Assembly: GCA_038207625.1 (NCBI GenBank)
Contig: JBBQZO010000005.1
Span: 20,247-84,246 of the forward strand
DNA from: Burkholderiales bacterium
GTDB taxonomy: Bacteria > Pseudomonadota > Gammaproteobacteria > Burkholderiales > Burkholderiaceae_D
Length of the DNA stretch: 64,000 bases
Direction of reading: 5' to 3'
The notes under the pieces: model-generated
What the model saw: the letters and a program-made list of their open reading frames with translations, nothing else
What the model was told of the DNA's origin: nothing
Databases searched by the model: none
Part shown: one piece after another, positions 3,522 to 51,439 of the stretch
Position numbering within the stretch: the first letter of the stretch is position 1
Layout: the number at the start of each line of letters is the position of its first letter
Made by a program: the position numbers and the translations under genes

Positions 3522-3908
3522 CGTGCTGCTGCCATGCAAGCAAACAGCGCCGCGGCGGCGCCGCCTTGGCCGCCACACCCGTCATCGCATCGCCATTTTG
3601 CGTGTTAATCATGCTTGCATGAACACCATTTAATTTCAGCAACCTTTGAATATACTGTGTAAAGTCCCCGATACCTTGTGACGCCCGGCGTTGACAAAAT
3701 TGCTGACAGGCATCAATCGAGTGCAGGTGGGTGGCGGCGGAATGCCGCACTTTCCACTATCGTTCATTGTGTTCTCCATGCGACATTGGGGGCCACGGTT
3801 CCAGTTACCAGTCCACCTCTGCATGCGCCCCACACCGGACCTCAGCGCGTACTGCGATACCAGCTTTGCCATTCAACCGACGCTTCCCCACGTAAAGGAA
3901 CTTCAATC

Positions 3909-4670
3909 ATGCATGCAAATGAACACGACGCGGCCATTGCCGACCTCGACCTCGCCCCGATCAAGCTCAAGCTGATGCACCGTGCCTCCGGCGAAGGCTG
4001 GACGCTGGGCAAGGCCAACGCGGTGGAACGTGAATACCGGCGCTTCCTGACATTGATGAAGATGTTTCCAGCCGAGCCGACGGCGCCGCTGGTGGACGTC
4101 GATATTTTCTGGCACTACCATATTCTCGACACGATGAAATACGCGGCCGACTGCGCCGTCGTGTTTGGCTATTTCCTGCACCATTTCCCCTACGTGGGAA
4201 TGCGCGGCGAAGCCGATGAGCAAGCCCGTCAGGCACATGGTGTTCGCATGAAACAGTTGTACGAGCAAACCTTTGGCGAGCCCTACCTGCCCGATGTGGC
4301 GGGCGCACCGACCAACGCCTATTGCGGCGCGGCAGGAACCGTCGCTTACTGCGGCGCCACTGCCAACGCGGCTTATTGCGGGGCCACCGCCAAGGCAGCC
4401 TACTGCGGAGCCGCAGCGACGCCGGCATATTGTGGCGCCAATGCAAATGCGGCCTATTGCGGGGCCACTGCCACGACGGCGTATTGCGGAGCTGCAACGG
4501 CGGCGGCGTATTGCGGAGCCGCAACGGCGGCGGCCTACTGCGGCGCCGCAACGACGGCCGCCTACTGCGGCGCGAGTGCGCTCAGCGCACCGACCGATCA
4601 GCATGCCCGCAACGCTAGCGGCAATGCGCATGTTTATGCTGAACGGCCCCGCCTCGACGGCGCGAGCTAG
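3909..4670 (+). CDS. DUF1399/GRDP-like His-rich domain protein with 10 tandem AYCG nonapeptide repeats (paralog B)
   Basis: 253 aa starting MHANEHD, with RBS aaggaa upstream. About 75% identical to paralog A over the N-domain. The C-terminus carries 10 repeats of 'AYCG(A)xxxx'. Confidence 0.8.
   Translation: MHANEHDAAIADLDLAPIKLKLMHRASGEGWTLGKANAVEREYRRFLTLMKMFPAEPTAPLVDVDIFWHYHILDTMKYAADCAVVFGYFLHHFPYVGMRGEADEQARQAHGVRMKQLYEQTFGEPYLPDVAGAPTNAYCGAAGTVAYCGATANAAYCGATAKAAYCGAAATPAYCGANANAAYCGATATTAYCGAATAAAYCGAATAAAYCGAATTAAYCGASALSAPTDQHARNASGNAHVYAERPRLDGAS
4316..4590 (+). repeat. 27-bp tandem repeat x10 (coding, AYCGAxxxx)
   Basis: Unit gcc-tay-tgc-ggn-gcn-n12 repeated head-to-tail 10 times. 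Confidence 0.9.
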
Positions 4671-6526: not shown

Positions 6527-7438
6527 CTATTTTAACGCAGTCGCCCGCGCTGCCGCGGCCAAGGCCGCCAGCGCCGGTCCCACCAGCGGATAGCGCAGAC
6601 GCACCCCCAGCTCGTGCTTGATGCGCCGGTTCTGCATGCGGCGCGACTCGGACATGAACGACAGCAGCATCGGCGAGACCGCCAGCGCCAGGTCGGCGCG
6701 CGCCAGGCGCGGCGGACGCGCCAGCGCAAACGCGTCGGCCACCGCGTCGAAATACTCGGCCATGTGCATCTGGCTGTCGTCGACGGCGTGATAGACCCGG
6801 CCTGGCAGGGCGCGCAGCAAGGCGCACACGATGATGCGCGCCAGGTCGTCGGCATGGATGTGGTTGGTGTACACGTCGTCCTCCACGCGCAAAGCCGGCG
6901 TGCCTTGTTCGAGCCGCTTGAGCGGCAAGCGCTCGCTCGCGTAGATGCCCGGCACGCGCAGGATCGCCAGCCGGCCCTGCTTGCGGCGCGCCCACGCGCG
7001 CAACACCTGCTCGGCATCGACGCGCCGGCGCGCGCGCGCATTGTGCGGCGCCAGCTTGCGCGTTTCATCGATCAGCGCGCCGCCGCAATCGCCGTAGACG
7101 CCGCTGGTGCTGACATAAACGAGATGGGCCCGCTCAGGTAAAATGGCGCACAGATTGCGGCTGCGCCGGTCCAGCGCGCCGTCCGACTGGGGCGGCACCA
7201 GATGCACCACATGCTGCGCCAGACCGGCCAGACGGGCGATGCTGTGCCGGTCGTCCAGGTTGGCCACCAGCGGCACGGCACCGGCGGCGCGCAGTTGCGC
7301 GCAGCGCGCCGGCGAGCTGGTCACGGCGAAGATGCGGAACTGGCGGCGCAGCAGCGGCAGCAAGCGCATGCCGACGTCACCGCAACCGAGGATCAACAGG
7401 CGCGGTCGTTTCAATTTCACAGTAGTGTTGTTCTTCAT
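6527..7438 (-). CDS. NAD-dependent epimerase/dehydratase family protein (extended SDR)
   Basis: Start MKNNTTVKLKRPRLLILGCGDVG (Rossmann GxGxxG), placed by counting within ORF 6527..7819. The upstream 127 codons of that ORF overlap the divergent gene's promoter region. Confidence 0.8.
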   Translation of the reverse strand: MKNNTTVKLKRPRLLILGCGDVGMRLLPLLRRQFRIFAVTSSPARCAQLRAAGAVPLVANLDDRHSIARLAGLAQHVVHLVPPQSDGALDRRSRNLCAILPERAHLVYVSTSGVYGDCGGALIDETRKLAPHNARARRRVDAEQVLRAWARRKQGRLAILRVPGIYASERLPLKRLEQGTPALRVEDDVYTNHIHADDLARIIVCALLRALPGRVYHAVDDSQMHMAEYFDAVADAFALARPPRLARADLALAVSPMLLSFMSESRRMQNRRIKHELGVRLRYPLVGPALAALAAAARATALK

Positions 7439-7450
7439 TTTGAGGATTGT

Positions 7451-31027: not shown

Positions 31028-32974
31028 ATGACAAGCCTGTTTTCAAGCAGCGATAGCGTGTCCGCCTTTGTCATACTTTTAGTCGTCCTGCTCGCCTGCG
31101 CCCTGCTCCTCAAACTGGCCGGCGTCGTCAAATATATTCCCAACGACCGCATCGGCGTCGTCGAAAAACTGTGGAGTTCGTCCGGCTCGGTGCAAAGCGG
31201 TTTGCTGGCCTTGCAAGGTGAAGCCGGCCTGCAAGCGGAACTGCGCCGTGGGGGCTTCCACTTCTTCGCGCCCTTCCAATTTCGCGTACACATCCACCCG
31301 ATGGTGTCGGTCACGCAAGGAACCATCGCGTATGTATTCGCGCGCGACGGCATCGATCTGCCGGCCGGCCAGACGCTGGCCGACAACGCCGGCGTGGCCG
31401 ATTTTCGCGACGTACGCGCCTTCCTGGTGGGCGGCGGACAAAAGGGGCCCCAGCGCAAGATCCTGCGCGAAGGCACCCACATCATCAACCCGGCGCTGTT
31501 TGTCGTGATGACGGGCGAGGCGACGTATTCGATGTCGCTCGACGTGCAGGAAAAACTGTATTACGAGCAAATGCGCAGCGTGCTCGATGAGCGTAGCGGC
31601 TTTACCCCGGTCGTCATCAAGGAAGTGACCGGCTCGCATGATTCGGATCAGCTGGCGGTCGTCACCGTGCAGGACGGCCCCGGCCTGCTCAAGGACGAGC
31701 TGCTCGCGCCCGACGTGGGCGATAACCACAACGCGTTCCAGGAGCCGGAAAAATTTCTCGCCGCCGGCGGACGACGCGGGCGCCAGGAGCGCGTGCTGGT
31801 CGAAGGCACTTACTTCATCAACCGCCTGTTTGCCACTGTCGAGTTCATCAAGAAAACGGTGATCCCGGTCGGCTTCGCCGGCGTCGTGGTGTCGTACACG
31901 GGACGCAAGGGCGACGACTTGTCGGGCATGGAATACAGCCACGGCGAACTCGTTGAGAGCGGCTGCCGCGGGGTCTGGCGCGATCCGCTGATGCCGGGCA
32001 AGTATGCCTTCAACACCTACGCCGGCAAGATCGAACTGGTCCCCACCACCAACTTCGTGCTGATGTGGCAGTCCGGCGCCAGCGGCTCGAACTTCGACGC
32101 CAACCTGCGCGAAATCACGCTCATCACCAAAGACGCGTTCGAGCCGCAATTGCCGCTGTCGGTGGTGGTGCACATCGACTACCGCAAGGCGCCGATGGTG
32201 GTGCAGCGCTTTGGCAACGTGGCCCAACTGGTCGAACAGACGCTCGACCCGATGGTGTCGTCCTACTTCAAAAACGTTTCGCAGACCAAGACCTTCATCG
32301 AGCTGATCCAGTCGCGCGCCGAGCTGCAGAGCAACGCCTCGGCCGAGATGAAGATGCGCTTCCAGGCCTATTCGCTGGAGTTCCAGGAGGTGCTGATCGG
32401 CACGCCGAAACCGCAGGCGGGCGACACCAAGATCGAAAATATCATGGCCCAGCTGCGCGACCGCCAGATCGCGCGCGAGCAGGTTGAGACGTTCGCGCAA
32501 AAACAGATCGCCGCCGACAAGGAGCGCGAACTGAACGAGGCCGAACAGCGCGCCGCCAAACAGAAGGAGCTGACCGGCTCGCTGGTGGACATCTCGATCA
32601 AGGAAAACCAGGGCTCGGCCAACGTCAAGGCGGCCGAGAAAAAGCGCCAGGAAATCGAGGCGCTGGCCCAGGGCGAAAAGTTCAAGCAGGAGATGGAGGG
32701 TTCCGGACGCGCATCGGCGATCCGCTCGGTGGGCGAGGCCGAGGCGGCCGCGATCCACGCCAAGTCCGAAGCGATGCAGGGCGAAGGCGCCGACAAGCAA
32801 CTGATGCAAACGGTAATGTTGCGTCTGGCCGAAGCGTTTGAAACGGCCAAGGTGCCGCTGGTGCCGCAGATCCAGCTCGGCGGCGGCGACAGCAACGCTT
32901 TCACCACTTTGATGAGCCTGATGGGTTCGCTGAAGGCGGGCGAGCTGGCCCAGTCGCTGAAGAGAGAAGCATAG
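31028..32974 (+). CDS. SPFH/band-7 flotillin-like protein (YqiK/FloT-like)
   Basis: Start MTSLFSS. N-terminal TM segment, SPFH domain, long Glu/Lys/Ala-rich coiled coil. Confidence 0.85.
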   Translation: MTSLFSSSDSVSAFVILLVVLLACALLLKLAGVVKYIPNDRIGVVEKLWSSSGSVQSGLLALQGEAGLQAELRRGGFHFFAPFQFRVHIHPMVSVTQGTIAYVFARDGIDLPAGQTLADNAGVADFRDVRAFLVGGGQKGPQRKILREGTHIINPALFVVMTGEATYSMSLDVQEKLYYEQMRSVLDERSGFTPVVIKEVTGSHDSDQLAVVTVQDGPGLLKDELLAPDVGDNHNAFQEPEKFLAAGGRRGRQERVLVEGTYFINRLFATVEFIKKTVIPVGFAGVVVSYTGRKGDDLSGMEYSHGELVESGCRGVWRDPLMPGKYAFNTYAGKIELVPTTNFVLMWQSGASGSNFDANLREITLITKDAFEPQLPLSVVVHIDYRKAPMVVQRFGNVAQLVEQTLDPMVSSYFKNVSQTKTFIELIQSRAELQSNASAEMKMRFQAYSLEFQEVLIGTPKPQAGDTKIENIMAQLRDRQIAREQVETFAQKQIAADKERELNEAEQRAAKQKELTGSLVDISIKENQGSANVKAAEKKRQEIEALAQGEKFKQEMEGSGRASAIRSVGEAEAAAIHAKSEAMQGEGADKQLMQTVMLRLAEAFETAKVPLVPQIQLGGGDSNAFTTLMSLMGSLKAGELAQSLKREA

Positions 32975-33029
32975 CCAGCGCACGTCACCGCGAACGAAGC
33001 GCAAGCGGACTTGACATCGACGGCGCAAT

Positions 33030-33340
33030 CAAAGAATCGGAAAGAATCGGGGACAGCAACTGTCTTGCGAAAGAATCGGGGACAGACGGGAAAGAGAAGA
33101 ATCGGGGACAGACCCGGAAGAATCGGGGACGAAGAGTCGGGGACAGACCCGGGTTTCAGGGAAACTTTCCCAAATTGATGGGTGACTATTTCCTGAAAAC
33201 ACGGGTCTGTCCCCGATTTGCGGGTCTGTCCCCGATTTGCGATTTCCTGAAAACACGGGTCTGTCCCCGATTTGCGCGGGTCTGTCCCCGATTTGCGCGG
33301 TCCCCTATTTGCGCGGGTCTGTCCCCGATTTGCGGGTTCA
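33030..33340. repeat. mirrored array of a 16-20 bp motif (GAATCGGGGACAGAC x~6 on the left arm, GGGTCTGTCCCCGATTTGCG x~6 on the right arm) around a central nested inverted repeat
   Basis: Non-coding sequence between convergent genes. The arms are reverse complements of each other. The central element tttcagggaaa / tttcctgaaaacac is duplicated. Confidence 0.85.
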
Positions 33341-33446
33341 TCGCACAAATTACTCTGACCCCGCTTTCGCGCACCGAAGTCAGCAGCGCGCAACGATCAA
33401 AGCCAGCGCAGTACGCGCGTCGAGGCCCGCGCGAGCTCCGCAGCAG

Positions 33447-36400
33447 TCAGCGAACGCGCCGCAACTGCCTGCGGCGCAGCAGCAAATACACCGCAGGCAC
33501 CACAAACATCGACAGCAGCGGCGCGCTCACCATGCCGCCCACCATCGGCGCGGCGATGCGCTGCATCACTTCCGAGCCGCTGCCCTCGCCCAGCATCACC
33601 GGCACCAGTCCGGCGATGATCACTGCCACCGTCATCGCCTTAGGGCGCACGCGCAGCACCGCGCCTTCACGGATCGCGTCCAGCAGATCGCTCTCCTCGC
33701 ACTTGCCGGCGGCTGTGCGCGCATCCCACGCATGCTTTAGATACAGCAGCATGATCACGCCAAATTCAGCCGCCACGCCGGCCAGCGCGATGAAGCCCAC
33801 TCCGCTGGCCACCGACAGATTGTGCCCCAGCGCCCACAACAACCAAAAGCCGCCGGCCAGCGCGAACGGCAGCGTCGCCATGATCAGCGCGGCCTCGTCA
33901 AGCCGCTGGAAAGTCAGGTACAGCAGCACAAAGATGATCAACAAGGTAGCCGGCACCACGATTTTCAAGCGCGCACTGGCGCGCTCCAGATACTCGAACT
34001 GGCCCGACCACGAGATCGAATATCCGGCCGGCAGCACCACTTGCTGGGCCACCGCCTGCTGCATCGCGCGCACCGCCGAACTGAGGTCGCGCCCGCGAAT
34101 GTCCACGTACACCCAGCCCGACAGGCGCGCGTTTTCGCTCTTCAGCATGGGCGGGCCGTCCTGGATGCGGATGGTGGACACGTCGCCCAGCCGGATCTGC
34201 GCGCCACGTTCGGTCAGCAACGGCAGCGCGCGCAGCTTCTCGAGCGAGTCGCGCACTTCGCGCGGATAACGCACATTGATCGGAAAGCGCTGCAAACCCT
34301 CCACCGTCTCGCCGATGTTGTCGCCCCCGATCGCGGCCGCCACCACGCTGTGCACGTCGGCGATGTTCAGGCCGTAGCGCGCCGCCGCGTCGCGGTCAAT
34401 GTCGATGTCGACGTAGCGCCCGCCATTGAGCCGCTCGGCCAGCGCCGACGACACGCCCGGCACCGGGCGCAGCACGCGCTCGATGTCGGCCGTGATACGG
34501 TCGATCTCCTTCAGACTCACGCCGGCCACCTTGACGCCGACCGGACTCTTGATGCCGGTGGCCAGCATGTCGATCCGGTTGCGGATCGGCGGCACCCAGA
34601 TGTTCGACAAGCCCGGCACCTGCACGATGCGATCCAACTCGGCCACCAGCTTGTCGCTCGTCATACCAAAGCGCCACTGCGCGCGCGGCTTGAACTGAAT
34701 GGTCGTCTCGAACATCTCCAGCGGCGCCGGGTCGGTGGCCGACTCGGCCCGCCCGGCCTTGCCGAACACGCTTTGCACCTCCGGCACCGTCTTGATCAGG
34801 CGGTCGGTCTGCTGCAGCAGTTGCGCCACCTTGCCCGCGCCGATGCCGGGCAGCGCCGACGGCATATACAGCACGTCGCCCTCGTCCAGCGGCGGCATGA
34901 ACTCGCCGCCCAATTGCGACAGCGGCCACAGCGTCGCCAGCGCGATCAGTCCGGCGCCGACCAGCGTCGTCTTCGGATGGCGCAGCACGACGTCGAGCAG
35001 GGGCCGGTACAGCGCGATCAACAAGCGGTTAATTGGATTGCTGCGTTCGTCGGGAATGCGTCCGCGAATCAGGTAGCCCATCAGCACCGGAATCAAGGTC
35101 ACCGCCAGCGCGGCGGCGGCGGCCATCGAGTAGGTCTTGGTAAATGCCAGCGGCGCGAACAGCCGGCCTTCCTGCGCCTCCAGCGTGAACACCGGGATGA
35201 ACGACAGCACGATGATCAGCAGCGAAAAGAACAGCGCCGGCCCGACCTCGGCGGCGGCGTCGCCGATCACGCGCCAGTGCTCGTCTCCGGACAGCTCCGC
35301 ATCGGGATGCGCGTGGCGCCACTGCTCGATGTGCTTGTGCGCGTTCTCGATCATCACCACCGCCGCATCGACCATCGCGCCGATCGCGATCGCGATCCCG
35401 CCCAGCGACATGATGTTGGCGTTCACGCCCTGATAGTACATCACCACGTAGGCCGCCAGTATCCCCAGCGGCAGCGAGACGATCGCCACCAGCGCCGAGC
35501 GCACGTGAAACAGGAACACGGCGCACACCAGCGCGACGACGATGAATTCTTCGATCAGCTTGTGTTCCAGATTGTCGACCGCGCGCACGATCAGGTTCGA
35601 GCGATCATAAGTGGGCACGATCTCCACGCCCGCCGGCAAACTGGCCTTGAGCAGCGCCAGCTTGGCCTTCACCACAGCGATCGTGGCCAGCGCGTTTTTA
35701 CCGGAGCGCATCACGATCACGCCGCCGGCCACCTCGCCCTCGCCATTCAGGTCGGCGATCCCGCGCCGCATCTCCGGCCCGATCTGGATGCGCGCCACGT
35801 CGCCCAAGCGCACCGCCACCCCGGCATCGCTGGTGCGCAGCGGGATCTTGCGGAAGTCGTCCAGCGATTGCAGATAGCCGGACGCGCGCACCATGTATTC
35901 GGCCTCACCCAGCTCCAGCAGCGAGCCGCCGGTTTCCTGGTTGGCGCGCTGGACCGCCGCAATCACCATGCCGTGCGGGATGTTAAACGCGCGCAGCTTG
36001 TCCGGGTCCAGCACGATCTGGTACTGGCGCACCATGCCGCCGATGCTGGCCACCTCGGCCACGTTGGGAACCGCTTTCAGCTCGTACTTCAAAAACCAGT
36101 CCTGCAGCGCACGCAGCTGCGACAGATCGAGCTTGCCGCTGCGGTCCACCAGCGCGTATTCGTAGACCCAGCCGACCCCGGTCGCGTCCGGCCCCAGCGC
36201 GGTCTTGGCTTGCGCGGGCAGGCGCGCCTGCACCTGGTTCAGGTATTCCAGCACGCGCGAACGGGCCCAGTACGGGTCGGTGCCGTCCTCGAACAGGATG
36301 TAGACGAACGAGTCGCCGAAGAACGAATAACCGCGCACGGTTTTTGCGCCCGGCACCGACAGCATCGTTGTCGTCAACGGATAGGTCACCTGGTTTTCGA

Positions 36401-36581
36401 CGATCTGCGGTGCCTGCCCCGGCAAGCTGGTGCGAATGATCACCTGCACGTCGGACAGGTCCGGAATCGCGTCAAGCGGCGTGCGCCCCAGCGCCCACAC
36501 GCCCCAGGCGGTGACGACGAGCGTCGCCAACAGCACCAGCACGCGGTTGGCGATCGACCAGCGTATCAGTTTGGCGATCAT
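33447..36581 (-). CDS. cusA: heavy-metal (Cu/Ag) efflux RND transporter
   Basis: 1044 aa, CusA/CzcA family. Confidence 0.9.
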
Positions 36582-39249: not shown

Positions 39250-39324
39250 GAAACCTCCAGAAAGCGATAGGCAACATCGCCGCCGCGCGCTGCGGGGCAA
39301 TGACGGGCTAGGCGATCTGGCGGA

Positions 39325-39708
39325 TTAAATGCGGAAACAGCAGTGTTGGATGGACAGCGGCGGCGCGGTGCTGCGCATCAGCAGCGTGGCGTCGATCGCG
39401 TCGGTGCGCGGCGCGACGATTTCTTCGGCTTGCAGCACGACGCACAAGGCGCCCGCCACGAACGGCTGCACATGCGGCGCGGCTGCGGTGTCAGCCGACT
39501 GGTTGCCAGCGTCGCAGTGCGCGTGGCACAGACCGGGCTGCGCCACCTTCATGCCGTGACAGTTCGCCATGTCCGCACCGACGTCCATGACCATCGGCGC
39601 GTCGCTGGTGCGCGGACACACGTAAGCCGCCACAGCCAACTGCGTAAACAGCAGGCTGAACAACGTAACAAGTGCGGCAAGCAGGCGCGCGGTGCGGGTC
39701 AAGGTCAT
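39325..39708 (-). CDS. DUF2946/CopL-like small secreted Cys/His/Met-rich protein (putative Cu-binding)
   Basis: 127 aa with signal peptide and CxxxH/HxHC/CHAHC motifs. First gene of the cus operon. Confidence 0.5.
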   Translation of the reverse strand: MTLTRTARLLAALVTLFSLLFTQLAVAAYVCPRTSDAPMVMDVGADMANCHGMKVAQPGLCHAHCDAGNQSADTAAAPHVQPFVAGALCVVLQAEEIVAPRTDAIDATLLMRSTAPPLSIQHCCFRI

Positions 39709-39760
39709 GTAGTCAATCGGGGAGTAACTAATAGTAAGGACATTTGGCGCATTCCGCAAG

Positions 39761-39790
39761 GCTGAGCAAGCACAGGCTGAGCAAGCACAG
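39761..39790. repeat. 15-bp tandem direct repeat x2 (ggctgagcaagcaca) upstream of the cus operon
   Basis: Perfect duplication in the promoter region. Confidence 0.6.
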
Positions 39791-40012
39791 CAATGATGGT
39801 TCGTGAGCCGCATACAACGAAATACGGCTCAAAAAATGAGTTAATTTCCCCGCGAATGCAGCGCAGGCAACTGGCTATGTTTGGCAACCATCAACCTGGC
39901 AGACATCGAGATACCAGCGTTGCGCCCTTACGTAGGCACTGCCCCAACCGCCGCCGCCGCGCGGACGCCAATTCGGCAAAGGCCAAGTGACCGGATAAAC
40001 TGGCGCGTCATG

Positions 40013-40279
40013 TCAACTACCAGAGAGGCATATGCATTCATACTCAAGATAGCGGCCCTTCGTGGTGATCGCCCCCCGCCCTTCCAATCGATAAGTCTGG
40101 TGTTCGCCGATACATTGCTTTGCACACATTTCGGTTAAGGATGCGCGCTCAGGAAGGAGGTGTGAAATAGACACGAAAACGAATAGGGCCGCAAACAAGA
40201 TGCAGGCGAATCGCATCTTCGTCATCACAAGAATGTTTTGCTTTCCTTTCATTTTTTTACCGGCCATCGCCCCGCCCAT
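40013..40279 (-). CDS. hypothetical small membrane protein
   Basis: 88-aa ORF in AT-rich DNA with a hydrophobic core (ILFAALFVFVSI). Confidence 0.3.
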   Translation of the reverse strand: MGGAMAGKKMKGKQNILVMTKMRFACILFAALFVFVSISHLLPERASLTEMCAKQCIGEHQTYRLEGRGAITTKGRYLEYECICLSGS

Positions 40280-40613
40280 CTTCTAGCGAGGATGCGACAC
40301 ATTCACGCACGTAATCATTCAAGGTCGAGCCATTTCTGGCCGCTTTCATCGCCGCGGCGCGGTGCAACGCCGGCGTCATTCGAACGTTGAAACTACCGCT
40401 AAATGGCTTGTCCGGTATCAGATTGTCGCGGGCGCACTTCTCGAGGTAATACTCGACCGCGTCTTGAAATGCTTTTTCCAGCTGCGCAGGAGCATCAGCC
40501 TCATAGGTGACCAGATCGTTGACGAACAACAGTTTCCCGTGAAGACAATCATCCTCGATGCTGACTTCGACTGATCCACAATATCCTTTGTAGCTCAGAG
40601 TCTTCTCGTTCAT
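40257..40613 (-). CDS. hicB: type II antitoxin HicB
   Basis: MNEKTLSYKGYCGSVEVSIEDDCLHGKLLF (HicB N-domain) plus C-terminal RHH-like DNA-binding tail. Confidence 0.8.
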   Translation of the reverse strand: MNEKTLSYKGYCGSVEVSIEDDCLHGKLLFVNDLVTYEADAPAQLEKAFQDAVEYYLEKCARDNLIPDKPFSGSFNVRMTPALHRAAAMKAARNGSTLNDYVRECVASSLEDGRGDGR

Positions 40614-40621
40614 ACGTCCTC

Positions 40622-40867
40622 TCATTTCCCCATCGCGTCAATCTGCTTGACTACTTCGCGCAGCACATATTTTTTCACGATCGTTTGCGGATGCGGCTGG
40701 TGCAAAAAAAACTTTTTCCCGTCCTCACTTTTAAATGTTCGGTACGAACCCGGCTTATCTGAAACATCTTGAAATCCAACTGATCTCAGCGCGGTCACGA
40801 GTTCATTCCACGTAAAGTCGGAGGGAATCGCGCGCAGTCTGGCGATGAGTTTGGCGGATTTGACCAT
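40622..40867 (-). CDS. hicA: type II toxin HicA (mRNA interferase)
   Basis: 81 aa 'LRSVGFQDVSDKPGSYRTFKSEDGKKFFLHQPHP', a dsRBD-like HicA fold. Immediately upstream of hicB. Confidence 0.85.
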   Translation of the reverse strand: MVKSAKLIARLRAIPSDFTWNELVTALRSVGFQDVSDKPGSYRTFKSEDGKKFFLHQPHPQTIVKKYVLREVVKQIDAMGK

Positions 40868-41190
40868 GGCATATCGAGTTAGTTGAAGTATAGTGCACCT
40901 GAATTTCAGTTGCAGAAACTTTGTCGCATCATGCTTTGGCGCCGATCATGCGCGCGTCCATCGAATGGCCAGCACCGGCTGGTGCCAAAGACCGGTTTCG
41001 CCACGCCGGCCACGCGATGCTGCGCGCCAGCATGTGGCCTCCCCGCGATCGGCGTGCTACTAGATCGTCAGCGGCGCACGCATTTAACACCCGGCGATAC
41101 AGATATGCTGCACATGCGCCAAGCTTGCTATCATGTCGGACTGTCGGCGCCACGCCGGCTTTTTTCCATCACAACGTAGGAGATCATCGA

Positions 41191-43320: not shown

Positions 43321-43534
43321 GTCCCTGGCGCGCCGCGCGCGCCTATGCCGCACAGGATCAGGATCTGCGCAGTCCGATTTCCCAATGTATCGCAATGTAT
43401 GCGCTGTGCACGGATTGGTAACGTACTGTGTCCCTTGCGCATTAATATACCGGCAAATGATAGTATCAAGTTCGCCATGCTGGCGCGCCGCCGGGCCCCT
43501 TCGCCGCCAGCAAGAACGCAACACAAGGACAACG

Positions 43535-45136
43535 ATGGAATCGCACTTCGACCAACCAGCAAACAAGCCGGCCACACGCCGCTCCCCTAGCCGCCGCGCG
43601 CGCATCGTCGGCGCGCTGATCGCGCTGATCGCCCTGGGCGGCTTGGGCGGCCTGGCCTGGTACCTGACCCATCCCGACGCCCCCGCCGGCGGCGCTGCCG
43701 GCGCGGGAGCTGGTGGCGGCCCTGGCGGCCCTGGCGGCGGCGGCCGCGGCGGACGCGGCGGCGCGCCCACCACCGTCGGCGTCGCCAGCGCCGAGCTGGC
43801 CGACCTGCCGGTCATGCTTGATGCGCTGGGCAGCGTCAGCGCGGCGGCCACCGTCACCGTGCGCCCGCAGGTGGCGGGCGTGCTCAAGGAAGTGCTGTAC
43901 CACGAGGGCCAGCCGGTCAAGGCTGGCCAACTGCTGGCGCGTATCGATCCGCGCCCGTTCGAGCTGGCCTTGCAGCAGGCCAGCGGTCAACTGCAGCGCG
44001 ACCAGGCGCAGCTCGAAAACGCCCGGCTCAGTTTGCAGCGCTTCCAGACCTTGCTGAGCCAGGACTCGATCGCGCGCCAGGACGTGGACACCCAGGCAGC
44101 ATTGGTCAAGCAGCTCGACGGCACGGTGATGATCGACCGCGCCAACGAAAGCACGGCGCGCCTCAATCTCAGCTATACCCGCATCGTCGCGCCGATCAGC
44201 GGACGCGTTGGCCTGCGCACCGTCGATGCCGGCAATCTGGTCAGCACCGGCGACGCCAACGGCGTGGCGCTGATCACCCAAGTGTCGCCGATCGACGTGA
44301 CATTCGCGCTGCCGCAAGACCGCGTGCCCGAATTGCAGGCGCGCGCCGGCAACGGCCCGGCCCCGTCGGTGACCGCGCTGGACCGCAACCGCAGCAACGT
44401 ACTCGACACCGGGCACTTCCTCGCGCTCGACAACCAGGTCGACGTGCAGACCGGCACCGTGCGCGCCAAGGCCCGCTTCGCCAATGAAAAACTGACGCTG
44501 TTCCCCAGCCAGTTCGTCAACGTTCAGCTGATGCTGCGCACCGTCAAGGACGCGGTGATGGTGCCGGTCACGGCGCTGCGCCATGGCGGCAGCGGCGACT
44601 TCGTCTACGTGCTTAATGCCGCCGAGCGCACCGTCGCGCTGCGCCCCGTCACGCGTGGTGAAGCCACCGTCGACAAGGTGCAGATCGCGACCGGCTTGAA
44701 GGCCGGCGAAAAAGTCATTACCGAAGGGGCCGACCGGCTCAAGGATGGTGCCAAAGTCACGCTGCCGGGCGACAAACCCGCGTTTGGTGGCGGTGGTGGC
44801 GGCGGACGCGGCAAACGTGGTCAGCGCGGCGACGGCGCGGCTGCAGGCAGTGCGGCGGCAAGCGGCGCCTCGGCAAGCGGCCCTGCGGCGGCCGGGGAAT
44901 CGGGCGCGGCCTCGGCACACGCCTGGGGCGGCAAGAAAAATGCGGCAGGCGCGGCGGACTCGGAATCCACGCCGGCAGCAGCATCGGGCCCCGGCTCGGC
45001 ACACGGATGGGGTGGAAAAAAAGCGGCGGGTGAAGCCGAATCGGCATCCGCATCAGGGTCCGCCTCGGCGGCCCAGGGCGACGCAAGCGCGCCGCGCGAA
45101 CATCACCGCCGCGCCAAAGAGGCGAGCGCGCAATGA
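43535..45136 (+). CDS. mdtA: multidrug efflux RND adaptor (MdtA/MuxA type) with low-complexity N-linker and C-terminal repeat tail
   Basis: Start MESHFD. TM anchor, (G/A/P)-rich linker, MFP core, then ~110 aa of G/A/S-rich tail with 2x 'SAHxWGGKK(N/A)A(A)G'. Confidence 0.85.
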
Positions 45137-45164
45137 CGATAGCAATCGTGTCCGGAGCGACATC

Positions 45165-48100
45165 ATGAGCCCGTCCAGCCCCTTCATCGTGCGCCCGGTG
45201 GCGACGTCACTGCTGATGGTCGCCATCGTGCTGGCCGGCCTGGTCGGTTTCAAATTCATGCCGCTGTCGGCGCTGCCGCAGGTCGATTTCCCGACCATTC
45301 AAGTGCAAACGCTGTACCCCGGCGGCAGTCCGGAGGTGATGAGCCAGACCGTGACGGCGCCGCTGGAGCGCCAGTTCGGCCAGATGGCCGGTTTGCAGCG
45401 CATGAGTTCGACCAGCGCCGCCGGCGTGTCGCTGGTGACGCTGCAATTTGGCCTGGGCCAGACGCTCGACGTGGCCGAGCAGGAGGTGCAGGCGGCGATC
45501 AACGCGGGCGGCTCGCTGCTGCCGGCCGACCTGCCGGCGCCGCCGGTGTACGCCAAGGTCAACCCGGCCGACGCGCCGGTGCTGACGCTGGCGATCACGT
45601 CGGACACGCTGCCGCTGACCGAAGTGCAGAACATCGTCAACACCCGGCTGGCGCTGAAAATCAGCCAGGTTACCGGCGTCGGCCTGGTCACGCTGTCGGG
45701 CGGACAGCGTCCGGCCGTGCGCATCCAGGGCGACACGCGCGCGCTGGCATCCTACGGCCTGGGGCTCGACACGCTACGCACCGCCATCGCGGCGGCCAAC
45801 GCCAACGGCGCCAAGGGCAGCATCGACGGACCAACGCGCGCCTACACCATCAACGCCAACGACCAGCTGGTCGCCGCCAGCGACTACAAGAGCCTGATCG
45901 TGGCCTACAAAAACGGCGCGCCGGTGCGCCTGTCGGACGTTGCCCAAGTGATCGACAGCGCCGAAAACGTCAAGCTGGGCGCCTGGGCCAGCCTGACCCC
46001 GGCGATCATCCTGAACGTGCAGCGCCAGCCGGGCGCGAACGTGATCGCCACGGTCGACGCGATCAAGGCGCGCCTGCCCGAGCTGCAAGCCGGGCTGCCG
46101 TCGGCGCTGCGTGTGCAGGTGCTGTCGGACCGCACTACCGGCATCCGCGCCTCGGTTGAGCACGTCGAAATCGAACTGACGCTGGCCGTGGTACTGGTGG
46201 TGCTGGTTATTTTCGGGTTTCTGCACAGCCCGCGCGCGACCGTCATCGCCAGCCTGGCCGTGCCCATTTCACTGATCGGCACCTGCGGCGCGATGTACCT
46301 GCTCGGCTACAGCCTGAACAACCTGAGCCTGATGGCGCTGACCATTGCCACCGGCTTCGTCGTCGATGACGCGATCGTGATGATCGAAAACATCGCCCGC
46401 TATATCGAGGAGGGCGAGCAGCCGATGCAGGCCGCTTTGAAAGGCGCCGCACAGATCGGTTTTACCATCATCTCGCTGACCGTCTCGCTGATCGCCGTGC
46501 TGATTCCGCTGCTGTTCATGGGCGACGTGGTGGGCCGCCTGTTTCGCGAATTTGCCATCACGCTGGCCATCACCATCCTCATTTCGGCGGTGGTGTCGCT
46601 GACGCTGGTGCCGATGATGTCGGCGCGCTGGCTCACCGCCGGCAAGCAGAAAGAAAGCAAACTGCAAAAGCAGTTCGACAAAGTAGTCGGCTATTACGAC
46701 CGTTCGCTCGGCTGGGTGCTGGACCATCAGGGCCTCACGCTGTTGGTCGCGCTGGCCACCCTGCTGCTGACGGTGCTGCTGTACGTGGTGATCCCGAAAG
46801 GTCTGTTCCCGACGCAGGACACGGGCCAGTTGCAGGCCCGGATAGAAACCGCGCAATCGGTGTCGTACGCGCGCATGGCCGGCCTGCAGCAAGCGGCCGC
46901 GCGCGCCATCATGGATGACCCGGACGTGGCCACCTTGAGTTCGCTGGTCGGCGTCGACGCGGCCAACAACACCATGCTGCACACGGGGCGCATGCTGATC
47001 AACCTCAAGCACGCGCGCAGCGGCACCCAGCAGGAAACCATGGAGCGGCTGCGCCGGCGCGTGGCCGACGTGGCCGGCGTGACCATCTACCTGCAGCCGA
47101 CCCAGGATTTGACGATCGACGCCGAGACCGGCCCGACCCAGTTCCGCGTCTCGCTCGAAGCGTCCGACAACAAGCTGGTGCTGGAATGGGCCGCCAAGCT
47201 GGTCCAGCAGATGCAGGCGATGGCGCCGCTGCGCAATGTCGTCTCGGACGCCGCCGCCAGCGGCAGCGCGGTGTTCATCGACATCGACCGCGACAGCGCG
47301 GCGCGCCTGGCCATCAGCGCCGCCGCCATCGACGACGCGCTCTACAGCGCCTTCGGCCAGCGCATCGTCTCGACCATCTTCACCGAGACCAACCAGTACC
47401 GCGTGATCCTCGAGGCGCGTCCCGACGCGCTGACCACCCCGGCCACGCTGGGCGAACTGCAACTGCGCACCGCCTCCGGCAAGGCCACGCCGCTGTCGGC
47501 CATCGCCACCATCAGCGAACGCCCGGCGCCGCTGCAGGTGACCCGCGTGGCGCAGTATCCCGCCACCACGATTGGCTTCGACACGGCCAATGGCGTCTCG
47601 CTGGGCAAGGCGGTCGACACGGTGCGCCAGGCGGCCAGCGAAATCGGCCTGCCGCCCACCGTGACGCTCACTTTCCTGGGCGCGGCCAGCGCCTACCAGG
47701 CGTCGCTGACGAGCCAGCTGTGGCTGATCCTGGCCGCGGTGATCTGCGTCTACATCGTGCTTGGCGTGCTGTATGAAAGCTATATCCATCCGCTCACCAT
47801 CATCTCCACCCTGCCCTCGGCCGGCGTGGGCGCGCTGCTGGCCTTGATGATCAGCGGCCAGGACCTGGGCGTGATCGGCATCATCGGCATCATCCTGCTA
47901 ATTGGCATCGTCAAGAAAAACGCCATCATGATGATCGACTTTGCCATCGACGCCGAGCGCAATGAAGGCAAGGACGCGCGCGCGGCGATCCATCAGGCGG
48001 CGCTGCTGCGCCTGCGCCCTATCCTGATGACGACGATGGCCGCGCTGTTCGCCGCCGTGCCGCTGATGCTGGGTTGGGGCGAAGGCGCCGAGTTGCGCCG

Positions 48101-48248
48101 TCCGCTGGGCCTGGCCATCTTCGGCGGCCTGATCGTGAGCCAGGCACTGACGCTATTTACCACCCCGGTGATCTATCTCGGCTTTGACAGCCTGGGCCGG
48201 CGCTGGTCGCGCAAACGCGCCGGCAAGCCGGCGGGAGAAGCCGTTTGA
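45165..48248 (+). CDS. mdtB: multidrug efflux RND permease
   Basis: 1027 aa, 12 TM, RND family. Confidence 0.9.
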
Positions 48249-51200
48249 ACCTGTCCGCACCGTTTGTCAGGCGTCCGGTCGGCACGCTGCTGTTGACGAT
48301 CGGCCTGGCGCTGTCGGGCATCGGCGCGTTTTTCGTGCTGCCGGTGTCGCCGCTGCCGCAGGTCGACTACCCGACCATCTCGGTGTCGGCCAACCTGCCC
48401 GGCGCCAGCCCGAACACCATGGCCACCAGCGTGGCCACGCCGCTGGAACGGCGCCTGGGCGTGATTGCCGGCGTCAACGAGATGACTTCGTCGAGCGGCA
48501 ATGGCCAGAGCCGCATCAGCCTGCAGTTTGAGCTCACCCGCAAGATCGACGCGGCCGCGCGCGAAGTGCAGGCGGCCATCAACGCCGCGCGGGTCGATCT
48601 GCCGGCCACGCTGCGCAGCAATCCCACCTACCGCAAGGCCAACCCGGCCGACGCGCCCGTGATGATCCTGGCGCTCACGTCCAAGACGCGCACGCCCGGC
48701 CAGGTGTACGACGCGGTGTCGAACCTGGTGCAGCAAAAGCTGGCGCAGGTCAATGGCGTGGGTGACGTCGAACTGGGCGGCGGCTCGCTGCCGTCGGTGC
48801 GCGTGGAGCTGCTGCCGTATGCATTGAGCCGCTACGGCGTGAGCATGGAAGACGTGCGCGCGGCGATCCAGGCCAGCAGCGCCAACCGGCCCAAGGGCGC
48901 CATCGAAGGCGACGACCGGCGCCTGCAGGTGTATTCGGGCAGCGGCACGGGTGGGCACAACGCGGCCGACTTCCGCCCGCTCGTCGTCGCCTGGCGCAAC
49001 AACGCCGCGATCCGCCTGTCCGACGTGGCCGAAGTGGTCAACGGAGTGGAAAATACCAACACGCTGGGCCTGTTCAATGGCGAGCCGGCGGTGGTGGTCC
49101 TGATCACCCGCCAGCCGGGCGCCAACGTGATCGAGACGGTCGATGGCATCCGCGCGCTGCTGCCCGATCTGCAGGCGGCGCTGCCGCAGGACGTCAAGCT
49201 GGAAGTGGCCTCCGACAGCACCAATTCGATCCGCTCGTCCCTGCACGAGATCGAACTGACCCTGATCATTTCGATCGTGCTGGTGGTGCTGGTGGTGAGC
49301 GCATTTTTGCGCAGCGTGCGCGCCACCATCATCCCGGCAGTGGCCACCATCGTGTCACTGCTGGGCACCTTCGGCGTCATGTATTTGCTCGGCTTTAGCC
49401 TCAACAACCTGAGTCTGATGGCGCTCACGGTAGCCACCGGTTTTGTCGTCGACGACGCCATCGTGGTGCTGGAAAACACCGCCCGCCACATCGAGGCCGG
49501 CATGGAGCGCATGCAGGCGGCGCTGCTGGGCGCGCGCGAGGTGGGCTTCACGGTGCTGTCGATCAGCGTCTCGCTGGTGGCCGTGTTCATCCCGCTGCTG
49601 TTCATGGCCGGCCAGGTGGGCCGCTTGTTCCGCGAGTTCGCCGTGACGCTGTCGGTGGCGGTGATGATCTCGCTGCTCATTTCGCTGACCACCACGCCGA
49701 TGATGTGCGCCTGGCTGCTCAAGTCCGGCACCCCGACGCGCCAGCCGGGGCGCGTGGCGCGCTGGTTCGAGCGCGGTTTTGACTTCATCCACCGCCTCTA
49801 CGAGCGCAGCCTGGACTGGGCCATGGCCAGCGTCGCGCTGGTGATGTGCATCCTGGTGGCGGTGGTGGCGCTGAACGTCTACCTGTTTTCCAGCGTGCCG
49901 AAAGGCTTCTTCCCGCAGCAGGACACGGGACAGATCAACGGCGGCCTGCGCGCCGACCAGAGCATCTCGTTCCAGGCGATGCAGGACAAGCTGCGCCAGA
50001 TGGTCGACATCATCCGGCGCGACCCGGCCGTGGCCACCGTGGTCGGTTTCACCGGCGGCTCGCGCGCCGGCGGCGGCTTCATGTTCGTCAACCTGAAGCC
50101 GGTCGCGCAACGCACCGACAAGGGCCAGGCGGTGATCGCGCGGCTGCGTCCGCAACTGGCCAAGGTGACCGGCGTGAGCCTGTTCCTCAATCCCGTGCAG
50201 GACGTGCGCATGGGCGGGCGTCAGAGCAATTCGACCTATCAGTACACCCTGAAAAGCGACAACCAGGCCGACCTGAAACTGTGGGCCACCAAGCTGGCCG
50301 AGGCCATGAAGGGACAAAGCGCGCTGACCGACGTGGACACCGACCAGCAGGAGAACGGCGTGGAAACCTATGTGCACATCGACAAGGACAGCGCCGCGCG
50401 GCTGGGTCTGTCGGCGCGCGACATCGACAATGCGCTGTACGACGGCTTCGGCCAGCGCCAGGTGGCCACGCTGTACGCCGACCTGAACCAGTACCACGTG
50501 GTGATGGAAGTGGCGCCCCGTTTCGCGCGCAGCCCGGAGGCGCTGCGCGACCTGTATGTGCCGGCGCGCGGCCAGGTGTCGACCGACGCGGCCAGTGCTG
50601 GCGCGGCGGCGCCGGCCTCGGTGGTCAACCCGGCGCTGCGCGATCCGTCGAGCGGCCAGGCGGTCAGCGCGGCGGCCACCCGCATGGTGCCGCTGTCGGG
50701 TTTCGCCAGCTTCGCCGACAGCGCCACCGCCAGCTCGATCAACCACCAGGACGCCGAACTGGCCACCACCGTGTCGTACAATCTGGCGCTGGGCAGCACG
50801 CTGTCGGACGGCCAGGCGGCGGTGCATCAGGCCGAGGCCGAGATCGGCATGCCCAACAATGTGCGCGGCAGCTTCCAGGGCACCGCACGCGCCGCCCAGG
50901 ATTCGCAGAACCAGCAGCCGCTGCTGATCCTGGCCGCGCTGGTGGTGATCTACATCGTGCTGGGCATGCTGTACGAATCACTGATCCATCCGCTGACGGT
51001 GATCTCGACGCTGCCCTCGGCCGGCGTGGGCGCAGTGCTGGCGCTGCTGCTGTTCAAGATGGAATTCACCATCATCGCGCTGATCGGCGTGTTCCTGTTG
51101 ATCGGCATCGTCAAGAAGAACGCCATCCTGATCATCGACTTCGCGCTGGAGGCCGAGCGCACGCGCGGTCTGTCGGCGTTCGACGCCGTGCGCGAAGCAT

Positions 51201-51439
51201 GCCTGCTGCGCTTTCGCCCGATCCTGATGACGACCATGGCCGCCATTCTCGGCGCGCTGCCGCTGGCGATCGGTTTCGGCGAAGGCTCGGAACTGCGCCA
51301 GCCGCTCGGTGTGTCCATCATCGGCGGGCTGATTGCCAGCCAGGTGCTGACACTGCTGACCACCCCGGTGGTCTACCTGTTGCTCGATAAACTGCGCAAG
51401 CGCCCTCGCCCGGTCGCCGCGCAAGCTGTCCTTTCATGA
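48245..51439 (+). CDS. mdtC: multidrug efflux RND permease (second paralog; TTG start overlapping mdtB stop)
   Basis: 1064 aa, about 45% identical to the previous gene. Tandem RND pair typical of MdtBC/MuxBC. Confidence 0.9.

What the first reader, a model, noticed from the sequence alone, without database searches (positions are those of the whole stretch)
33030..33340. 300-bp mirrored array of a 16-20 bp motif between convergent genes
About 6 direct copies of GAATCGGGGACAGAC(CC) are followed, after a central nested palindrome (tttcagggaaac / atttcctgaaaacac, the latter duplicated), by about 6 direct copies of the reverse-complement motif GGGTCTGTCCCCGATTTGCG. The whole can fold into a very long imperfect hairpin or cruciform. 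It is non-coding; the ORFs across it are repeat artifacts. It sits exactly at the junction between the flotillin-like gene and the end of the cus operon. It is not CRISPR-like: there are no unique spacers and the arrangement is mirrored. It could be a MITE or BIME-like mobile remnant, a recombination scar marking an island border, or an iterated binding array for a regulator.
Basis: seen in the sequence. Interest (0 to 1): 0.6.

Follow-up and report, generated by a model that had tools for sequence, protein, structure and literature searches.

The report
Amplified REP-element hairpin between convergent genes
The mirrored repeat array is a small non-coding mobile-element relic (a REP/REPIN-type palindromic repeat, found in many bacteria next to a dedicated transposase) whose two arms were each copied five or six times on the spot; it is an unusually large example of an ordinary kind of bacterial repeat.

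Summary
At 33031-33334 there are 4 full and 2 partial copies of AATCGGGGACAGACCC. A 51-nt centre follows, then 5 exact and 1 partial copy of the reverse complement. The array lies between the stop codons of an SPFH/flotillin-like gene and cusA, and both strands fold into a roughly 300-nt hairpin.

The motif is not peculiar to this locus. The exact 16-mer occurs in more than 118 stretches from 76 assemblies, up to 13 per assembly, including Oxalobacteraceae relatives. The usual form is an inverted doublet of fixed polarity, which is REPIN architecture. Its canonical unit is the palindrome AATCGGGG-ACAGA-CCCCGATT. In at least five genomes, Y1 (IS200-like, RAYT-type) transposase genes are flanked by units with this core.

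The window element is therefore one REPIN-like doublet. Each arm was amplified locally, as shown by arm-specific flanks, partial units and a 54-nt near-perfect duplication. It is absent downstream of SPFH and cusA homologues in relatives, and no other copy lies in the 64 kb.

The unusual points are its size and its mirrored layout of direct repeats within each arm. A role as a bidirectional 3'-end hairpin is inferred, not shown. Interest is low to moderate.

The parts
33031..33151 (+). Left arm: tandem direct copies of (G/A)AAGAATCGGGGACAGAC(CCG). There are 4 units with 16-mer cores at 33045, 33074, 33100 and 33135, plus partial units at 33031-33040 and 33117-33130. The arm-specific flank is GAAGA/GAAAGA.
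33137..33216 (.). Innermost inverted pair, the presumed original REPIN-like doublet. The arms are 33137-33164 and 33189-33216 (28 nt, 86% complementary), separated by a 24-nt spacer.
   Evidence: I3; I2
33152..33202 (.). Centre and loop: extended arm sequences GGGTTTCAGGGAAA / ATTTCCTGAAAACAC, with the small palindrome GGGAAACTTTCCC at 33159-33171.
33203..33334 (+). Right arm: five exact copies of GGGTCTGTCCCCGATT with the arm-specific tail TGCG(CG), at 33203, 33222, 33257, 33278 and 33315, plus the partial unit GTCCCCTATTTGCG at 33300-33313.
33188..33297 (+). Near-perfect 54-nt tandem duplication inside the right arm (ATTTCCTGAAAACAC plus two units). The 35-nt cores at 33188-33222 and 33242-33276 are 100% identical, which marks a recent local duplication.
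   Evidence: D1; period 54, 2.0 copies, 96% matches
31028..32974 (+). Upstream convergent gene: an SPFH/Band_7 (flotillin-like, YqiK-type) protein of 648 aa from the ATG at 31028. Its stop codon lies 57 nt before the array.
33447..36581 (-). Downstream convergent gene: a CusA-type RND heavy-metal efflux pump of 1044 aa, the last gene of the cusCBA-like operon. Its stop codon lies about 110 nt after the array.

Best explanation
The array is a single REPIN-type element, that is, an inverted doublet of REP (repetitive extragenic palindrome) units. It belongs to a widespread REP family whose core is GGGGACAGACC(CC) and whose canonical unit is AATCGGGG-ACAGA-CCCCGATT. It sits in the spacer between two convergent genes, and each of its two arms has been amplified locally into 5-6 head-to-tail copies.

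Shown: the family is dispersed and multi-copy, forms inverted doublets of fixed polarity, and in other genomes flanks RAYT-type Y1 transposase genes. The window copy is lineage-specific. Each arm carries its own junction sequence, partial units and a recent 54-nt duplication.

Inferred: the doublet arrived by RAYT-mediated single-strand transposition. The arms then grew either by hairpin-promoted replication slippage or by transposase cleavage and rejoining. The resulting ~300-nt hairpin lies at the 3' end of both transcripts. There it most likely acts as a passive barrier to read-through and to 3'-exonucleases, as described for E. coli REPs. It is unlikely to have a dedicated function.
For: Family and dispersal. 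The exact 16-mer occurs in more than 118 stretches (the scan was truncated) from 76 assemblies. Fourteen assemblies have 2 or more stretches and one has 13. They include the Oxalobacteraceae Telluria spp. and Pseudoduganella buxea. About 0.002 copies per genome are expected by chance. Of 151 hits, 78 or more continue with C[GA][AGT]TT, which completes the palindrome.

REPIN architecture. Adjacent pairs at up to 1 mismatch are 33 '<>', 2 '><', 4 '<<' and 4 '>>', with spacings of 23-129 nt. At up to 3 mismatches there are 43 '<>' clusters and 1 '><' cluster. Multi-arm forms '<<>', '<>>' and '<<<>' also exist. The window's '<<<<>>>>>' has the same polarity and is the largest seen.

Transposase link. 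Y1_Tnp genes (Pfam PF01797 above its cut-off; best NCBIfam match REP_Tyr_transpos) or their remnants lie beside the motif in L012, L038, L082, L006 and L054. That is 5 of 118 8-kb loci, against roughly 0.2 expected. Homologues in Propionivibrio limicola (L131) and in L133 are flanked by GGGGACAGACCACG ... CGTGGTCTGTCCCC in '<' gene '>' polarity.

Local amplification. Left-arm units carry TTCTTC-type flanks and right-arm units carry TTGCG-type flanks. There is a 54-nt duplication with 100% identical 35-nt cores. The window-specific 20-mer has only 4 hits in the metagenome collection, all ordinary doublets.

Lineage-specific insertion. No REP lies downstream of SPFH homologues (L119-L126) or of cusA homologues (L136, L137).

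Structure. The hairpin is strong on both strands, and no other terminator-like site exists in the spacer.

Published background. REPINs are inverted REP doublets, RAYT genes are flanked by them, and higher-order clusters occur (PMC3116915, PMC5581495, PMC3733652).
Against: Only one cluster is present in 64 kb, and no RAYT gene lies in the window. Multi-copy status and a cognate transposase are therefore unproven for the source genome. The window units are degenerate: they lack one G and the second half of the canonical palindrome (the profile match stops at position 22), leaving only a 4-bp unit stem. The NCBIfam REP_Tyr_transpos scores (30-71 bits) are below the curated cut-off of 80. Direct head-to-tail REP units are rare in the described REP families (PMC3733652), and known ordered clusters are tandem whole REPINs (PMC3116915), so the mirrored layout is atypical. 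There are no expression or termination data. A short-read assembler could have mis-stated the copy number.
Confidence: 0.8

Rival explanations
1. The array marks the border of an acquired island. On this reading the cus operon (with hicAB) was inserted next to the SPFH gene, and the array is the recombination scar or attachment-site remnant.
For: The array lies exactly at the 3' end of the cusCBA-like operon. The other end of the operon abuts a low-GC (0.51) islet carrying hicA/hicB. Gene order around the SPFH gene differs in every relative examined. cus operons in relatives sit in metal-resistance clusters.
Against: The same motif in 76 other assemblies sits at ordinary intergenic sites, often directly after stop codons, and not at recognisable island borders. 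No integrase, tRNA gene or matching direct repeat was noticed at the far end of the operon when 39250-41100 and its ORFs were read; no tRNA scan was run and the motif has no copy there. Relatives' cus operons carry no such array. REPINs need no island to explain their position.
Confidence: 0.07
2. The array is a set of iterated binding sites for a regulator or nucleoid protein, or a structural DNA element such as a cruciform or gyrase/IHF site, selected for a function at this locus.
For: There are ten near-identical 16-nt units in 300 bp. E. coli BIMEs are known to bind IHF, gyrase and Pol I (established knowledge; summarised in PMC3479197).
Against: Unit spacing is irregular (19, 35, 21, 37 nt on the right; 29, 26, 21, 14 nt on the left). 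The array lies at the 3' ends of both genes, and no promoter-like site was found. It is not conserved at homologous loci. The units are degenerate copies of a dispersed mobile repeat.
Confidence: 0.05
3. The array was selected as a bidirectional transcription terminator or RNA-stability element for the two convergent operons. On this reading the amplification itself is adaptive rather than incidental.
For: It is the only strong structure in the 472-nt spacer. On the minus (cusA) strand the hairpin is followed by a U-rich stretch, UUCUUUCCGAUUCUUUGAUU. Canonical family units are GC stems flanked by A- and T-runs, and many lie directly after stop codons.
Against: No canonical stem plus T-run site was detected. 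Homologous genes in relatives do without it. A single doublet would be enough for this role, so nothing shows that the extra copies are selected.
Confidence: 0.08

Closest known systems
REPINs (REP doublets) mobilised by RAYT Y1 transposases (Bertels & Rainey 2011, PMC3116915; Bertels et al. 2017, PMC5581495)
   Same: A short extragenic palindromic unit. An inverted doublet of fixed polarity that forms a hairpin. Many dispersed copies per genome in related bacteria. Y1 (IS200-like) transposase genes flanked by the units. Occasional higher-order clusters.
   Different: The described ordered clusters are tandem repeats of whole REPINs with their flanks. Here single REP units are repeated head-to-tail within each arm, which gives a mirrored array. 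The unit has no GTAG or CGTC tag. The linked transposases are about 210-240 aa, occur across several phyla, and score below the NCBIfam RAYT cut-off. Neither a RAYT gene nor a second copy is seen in the 64-kb window.
E. coli BIMEs (bacterial interspersed mosaic elements)
   Same: Clusters of REP units in the spacers between convergent genes, which can form large secondary structures at mRNA 3' ends.
   Different: In BIMEs the REP types Y and Z alternate in orientation, with defined linker motifs. Here orientation switches only once, at the centre, and the sequence is unrelated.
GTAG- and CGTC-tagged REP superfamilies (Di Nocera et al. 2013, PMC3733652)
   Same: A stem-loop unit with a 5-8 bp GC-rich stem and a 5-nt loop. 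Head-to-head dimers predominate. Some families form clusters.
   Different: The unit carries no GTAG or CGTC terminal tag. [quoted passage not shown]
MITEs
   Same: A small non-autonomous element with inverted-repeat ends.
   Different: No target-site duplication was seen by eye, the arms are made of tandem sub-repeats, and the associated enzyme class (HUH Y1 transposase) does not produce such duplications.

Membership tests
REP / REPIN-RAYT system | The unit is a short (20-40 nt) imperfect palindrome | tested here: met
   The canonical family unit is AATCGGGG-ACAGA-CCCCGATT (78 or more of 151 hits). The window units are truncated versions that keep only a 4-bp stem, CGGG/CCCG.
REP / REPIN-RAYT system | Two units in inverted orientation, separated by a short spacer, forming a hairpin (REPIN) | tested here: met
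   There are 33 '<>' against 2 '><' adjacent pairs in other genomes. The innermost pair in the window has 28-nt arms, 86% complementarity, a 24-nt spacer and the same polarity.
REP / REPIN-RAYT system | Extragenic location | tested here: met
   The array lies between the SPFH stop (32974) and the cusA stop (33447). The ORFs crossing it have no Pfam match.
REP / REPIN-RAYT system | Many dispersed copies in the same genome | not testable with these tools
   Only 64 kb of the source genome is available, and it holds one cluster. The source contig could not be fetched. The feature is met in related genomes: 7 contigs in a Telluria MAG, 13 in MAG RYN_570 and 9 in MAG co165_281, from a truncated scan.
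REP / REPIN-RAYT system | A cognate RAYT (Y1 transposase) gene flanked by the same REP units | tested here: inconclusive
   Met in other genomes: L038, L012, L082, L131 and L133 have Pfam Y1_Tnp genes flanked by units with the GGGG[AT]C[AT]G[AT]CC core. NCBIfam RAYT scores are below the cut-off. No such gene is in the window, and none was recovered from an Oxalobacteraceae genome.
GTAG/CGTC-tagged REP superfamilies | A conserved GTAG or CGTC tetranucleotide at one end of the palindrome | tested here: not met
   The position counts for 78 aligned units show no conserved GTAG or CGTC beside the stem. The flanks are A-rich and T-rich.
BIME (E. coli type) | REP units alternate in orientation along the cluster | tested here: not met
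   The orientation string is '<<<<>>>>>', with a single switch at the centre.
CRISPR array | Direct repeats of one orientation, separated by unique spacers of similar length | tested here: not met
   The array has two orientations. The gaps between units are 0-15 nt and are themselves repeated.
Intrinsic (Rho-independent) terminator | A GC-rich stem with a short loop, followed by a T-run | tested here: not met
   The consensus scan found 0 sites in 32700-33700. The large hairpin has only a weak U-rich tail, on the minus strand.
Described RNA families (Rfam) | A match to a covariance model at its gathering score | tested here: not met
   Only sub-threshold miRNA-precursor-like matches were found (26 bits against a gathering score of 136; 24.8 against 76), as expected for any long hairpin.

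The most novel reading that the evidence does not exclude
Mirrored arm amplification ('<<<<>>>>>') may be a distinct, recurrent higher-order state of this REP family rather than a one-off slippage accident. It would be produced by the family's Y1 transposase, through repeated cleavage and rejoining at the unit tail. Short tail duplications are seen next to units in several phyla. The resulting long hairpin would be kept because it insulates convergent operons. A related point is that one REP core (GGGGACAGACC) with its RAYT-like clade is shared across Proteobacteria, Acidobacteriota and other phyla. That would be an unusually broad REP-transposase partnership.
Probability: 0.12. Interest if true: 0.45.

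Novelty: new member of a known kind. Interest (0 to 1): 0.25.

Why it matters
The array explains an odd-looking 300-bp structure as a REP/REPIN relic, and so removes it from the list of candidate new systems. Two minor points may interest people who work on REPINs. First, this REP core (GGGGACAGACC) was not found in the searchable literature, yet it recurs across several phyla beside one clade of Y1 transposases. Second, units of this family often carry short tail duplications and direct arm repeats, of which this window holds the largest example seen. These features may be a footprint of how the transposase, or replication past the hairpin, processes these elements. In practice, such arrays break short-read assemblies and can be mistaken for CRISPR-like or regulatory arrays.

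Tried and rejected
The plasmid collection gave no match to the array. Rfam gave only sub-threshold miRNA-like hits.

Exact look-ups of the window's SPFH and CusA proteins, and of the 100%-identical P0001, found no retrievable contig. The source genome could therefore not be scanned for further copies or for a RAYT gene.

I compared homologous loci. SPFH homologues at about 89-92% protein identity (86-94% over the tblastn-aligned region) have entirely different neighbours and no REP. The nearest retrievable cusA loci (89% identical) have no REP downstream. The island-border idea therefore stayed untestable.

The metagenome scan with the window-specific 20-mer returned only 4 ordinary doublets. 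Viral-contig scans returned mostly single matches with no partner unit (two of them complete the palindrome), and one REP-like tandem of the CGTGGTCTGTCCCC subtype.

Literature searches for the motif as text found nothing relevant. It is also absent from the main text of three REP papers searched for it.

A nested-insertion model, with each new doublet inserted into the loop of the previous one, was rejected. The flanks differ between the arms, the 54-nt duplication lies within one arm, and the partial units are not mirrored in position. A model in which one arm is copied from the other was rejected for the same reason.

CRISPR, strict BIME, MITE with target-site duplication, and canonical terminator were each considered and not met (see the membership tests).

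Full report
**1. The observation**

The array is present as described. The left arm (33031-33151) carries tandem copies of (A/G)AAGAATCGGGGACAGAC(CCG). Four units have 16-mer cores at 33045, 33074, 33100 and 33135, with 3, 2, 0 and 1 mismatches to AATCGGGGACAGACCC. Two are partial units: AAAGAATCGG at 33031 and GAAGAATCGGGGAC at 33117.

The centre (33152-33202) holds GGGTTTCAGGGAAA, the small palindrome GGGAAACTTTCCC (33159-33171), and ATTTCCTGAAAACAC.

The right arm (33203-33334) has five exact copies of GGGTCTGTCCCCGATT, each followed by TGCG(CG), and a partial unit GTCCCCTATTTGCG. It also contains a 54-nt tandem duplication whose 35-nt cores are 100% identical (D1).

The 16-mer with up to 3 mismatches occurs 9 times here and only once, weakly, elsewhere in the window. 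Chance would give 0.45 matches. A profile of canonical units finds ten units in the array; outside it there are only three chance-level matches (E 2.8-9.5). Both strands fold into a long imperfect hairpin: -177 kcal/mol with z -12.6, and -162.7 kcal/mol with z -9.9.

The flanking genes are convergent. One is an SPFH/Band_7 protein that stops at 32974. The other is a CusA-type RND pump that stops at 33447, followed by CusB and an outer-membrane factor. The ORFs across the array have no Pfam match.

**2. The motif is a dispersed repeat in other bacteria**

These come from 76 assemblies. Fourteen assemblies contribute two or more stretches, up to 13 for MAG RYN_570, 9 for MAG co165_281 and 7 for a Telluria MAG. 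Chance would give about 0.002 copies per genome.

The source of the window is an unnamed member of the Oxalobacteraceae. Its best named protein relatives are Janthinobacterium, Collimonas, Duganella, Rugamonas, Undibacterium and Pseudoduganella. Oxalobacteraceae genomes (Telluria spp., Pseudoduganella buxea) are among the carriers. In the Telluria MAG many hits lie at contig ends, as expected for a repeat that breaks assemblies.

A minority of the hits are plainly chance matches inside coding sequence, for example in ABC-ATPase genes. Most hits, however, continue with C[GA][AGT]TT. This completes a palindrome, AATCGGGG-ACAGA-CCCCGATT, often with A- and T-runs outside it.

**3. Architecture of the family**

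Adjacent units within 150 nt are almost always convergent, with AATCGGGGACAGACCC first and GGGTCTGTCCCCGATT second. At up to 1 mismatch there are 33 such '<>' pairs against 2 of the opposite polarity, at spacings of 23-129 nt. At up to 3 mismatches there are 43 '<>' clusters against 1 '><' cluster.

This is the REPIN layout: two inverted REP units that form a hairpin (PMC3116915). Forms with an extra direct copy in one arm ('<<>', '<>>', '<<<>') occur about a dozen times. The window's '<<<<>>>>>' has the same polarity and is the largest cluster in the sample.

**4. Link to a transposase**

A motif search of six-frame translations, followed by tblastn, found Y1 (IS200-like) transposase genes or their remnants beside the motif. 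The loci are L012 (Halomonas getboli), L038 (Acidobacteriota), L082 (Chromatiales), L006 and L054. Two of them pass Pfam Y1_Tnp. For all three scanned (L012, L038, L082) the best NCBIfam match is 'REP-associated tyrosine transposase', but the scores are below the curated cut-off.

Five of 118 8-kb loci is far above the roughly 0.2 expected for a gene present once or a few times per genome. That expectation is my own estimate.

In L038 the gene is flanked on both sides by GGGGAC[AT]GTCCCC units. In L012 it is flanked by GGGGTCAGACCCC doublets. A profile search found thousands of homologues, many on ~1-kb contigs. The Propionivibrio limicola gene (L131) and another (L133) are flanked by GGGGACAGACCACG upstream and CGTGGTCTGTCCCC downstream, the same polarity as the doublets.

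The family therefore behaves as a REP-RAYT system. No such gene lies in the window.

**5. How the window copy arose**

The innermost pair, 33137-33164 and 33189-33216, has 28-nt arms that are 86% complementary and a 24-nt spacer. It looks like an ordinary doublet with extended arms.

The outer units are local copies. Left-arm units share TTCTTC-type junctions and right-arm units share TTGCG-type junctions, so each arm was amplified on its own rather than copied from the other. Partial units and the recent 54-nt duplication show that several separate duplication events occurred.

The 20-mer that includes the right-arm tail has only four matches in the metagenome collection, all ordinary doublets. 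The units with their tails are thus not a dispersed subfamily, as far as that collection can show.

Short tail duplications next to units recur in other genomes (L038, L072, L077, L084, L110, L142). This suggests a shared cause. It could be replication slippage at the hairpin, or transposase cleavage and rejoining. The latter has been proposed for complex REP arrays, as summarised in PMC3733652. Which of the two applies was not tested.

The window units are degenerate. They lack one G and the second half of the canonical palindrome.

**6. Conservation and context**

SPFH homologues of about 89-92% protein identity lie in quite different neighbourhoods and have no REP downstream. The nearest retrievable cusA loci (89% identical) have none either. 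The array is therefore a lineage-specific insertion, not a conserved feature of either gene.

No close relative of the source genome exists in the collections, and the source contig could not be retrieved. Two things therefore remain untested. One is the island-border idea, for which the low-GC hicAB islet at the other end of the cus operon is the only hint. The other is the genome-wide copy number in the source.

**7. Likely effect**

The spacer contains no promoter-like or canonical terminator-like site, and the array is its only strong structure. By analogy with E. coli REPs (established knowledge), the hairpin at the 3' end of both convergent transcripts probably impedes 3'-exonucleases and read-through. 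This is inference. Relatives manage without it, so a dedicated function is not required.

**8. Comparison with known systems, and verdict**

The element works like, and most probably is, a member of the REP/REPIN class. It is not a BIME in the strict sense, because the units do not alternate. It is not a tagged GTAG/CGTC REP, a CRISPR array, or a match to any Rfam family.

It differs from described REPIN clusters, which are tandem whole REPINs (PMC3116915). It also differs from the dimer types that a broad survey found typical, where head-to-tail pairs are rare (PMC3733652). Here the arms are direct repeats of single units.

The specific motif was not found in the searchable literature.

I rate it a new member of a known kind, with a mildly unusual arrangement. 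Interest is 0.25.

Noticed in passing
window 40257-40867 (- strand): A hicA/hicB toxin-antitoxin pair (Pfam HicA_toxin and HicB) lies in a low-GC islet (0.51 against about 0.65), just beyond the promoter end of the cus operon. It may be horizontally acquired.
   Followed up: partly
window 43385-51439 (+ strand): A second RND efflux system: a membrane-fusion protein followed by two AcrB-family pumps in tandem (MdtABC-like layout).
   Followed up: no
window 39325-39813 (- strand): A small Cys/His-rich ORF directly upstream of the outer-membrane factor gene of the cus operon has no Pfam match. It may be a metal-binding accessory protein.
   Followed up: partly
L038 4096-4200; L072 ~3903-3930; L077 ~420-476; L084 55-110; L110 ~2204-2240; L142 ~7390-7450: Short (8-16 nt) tandem duplications of the tail of REP units recur next to this REP family in unrelated phyla, for example (GCTAATCGG)x6 in Stutzerimonas tarimensis. 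They may be a footprint of how the units are processed.
   Followed up: partly
L012 3700-4550; L038 4050-5250; L131 2880-3900; L133 2940-3730: One clade of about 210-240-aa Y1 transposases is flanked by REP units sharing the core GGGG[AT]C[AT]G[AT]CC. It occurs in Gammaproteobacteria, Betaproteobacteria and Acidobacteriota. This is an unusually broad distribution for one REP core, and the motif was not found in the searchable literature.
   Followed up: partly
L123 6737-6819; the table; L014, L021, L084, L093, L101: Many contigs end at or near these REP units, and many of the transposase homologues sit on ~1-kb contigs. The repeats evidently fragment short-read assemblies. The L123 contig ends 83 nt after the SPFH stop codon.
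   Followed up: no
window 31028-32974 versus L119-L126: The SPFH/flotillin-like gene is highly conserved (86-94% protein identity), but its neighbours differ in every relative examined: lysozyme with a second Band_7 gene, type VI secretion genes, or amino-acid metabolism genes. Its first ~30 residues also diverge.
   Followed up: partly
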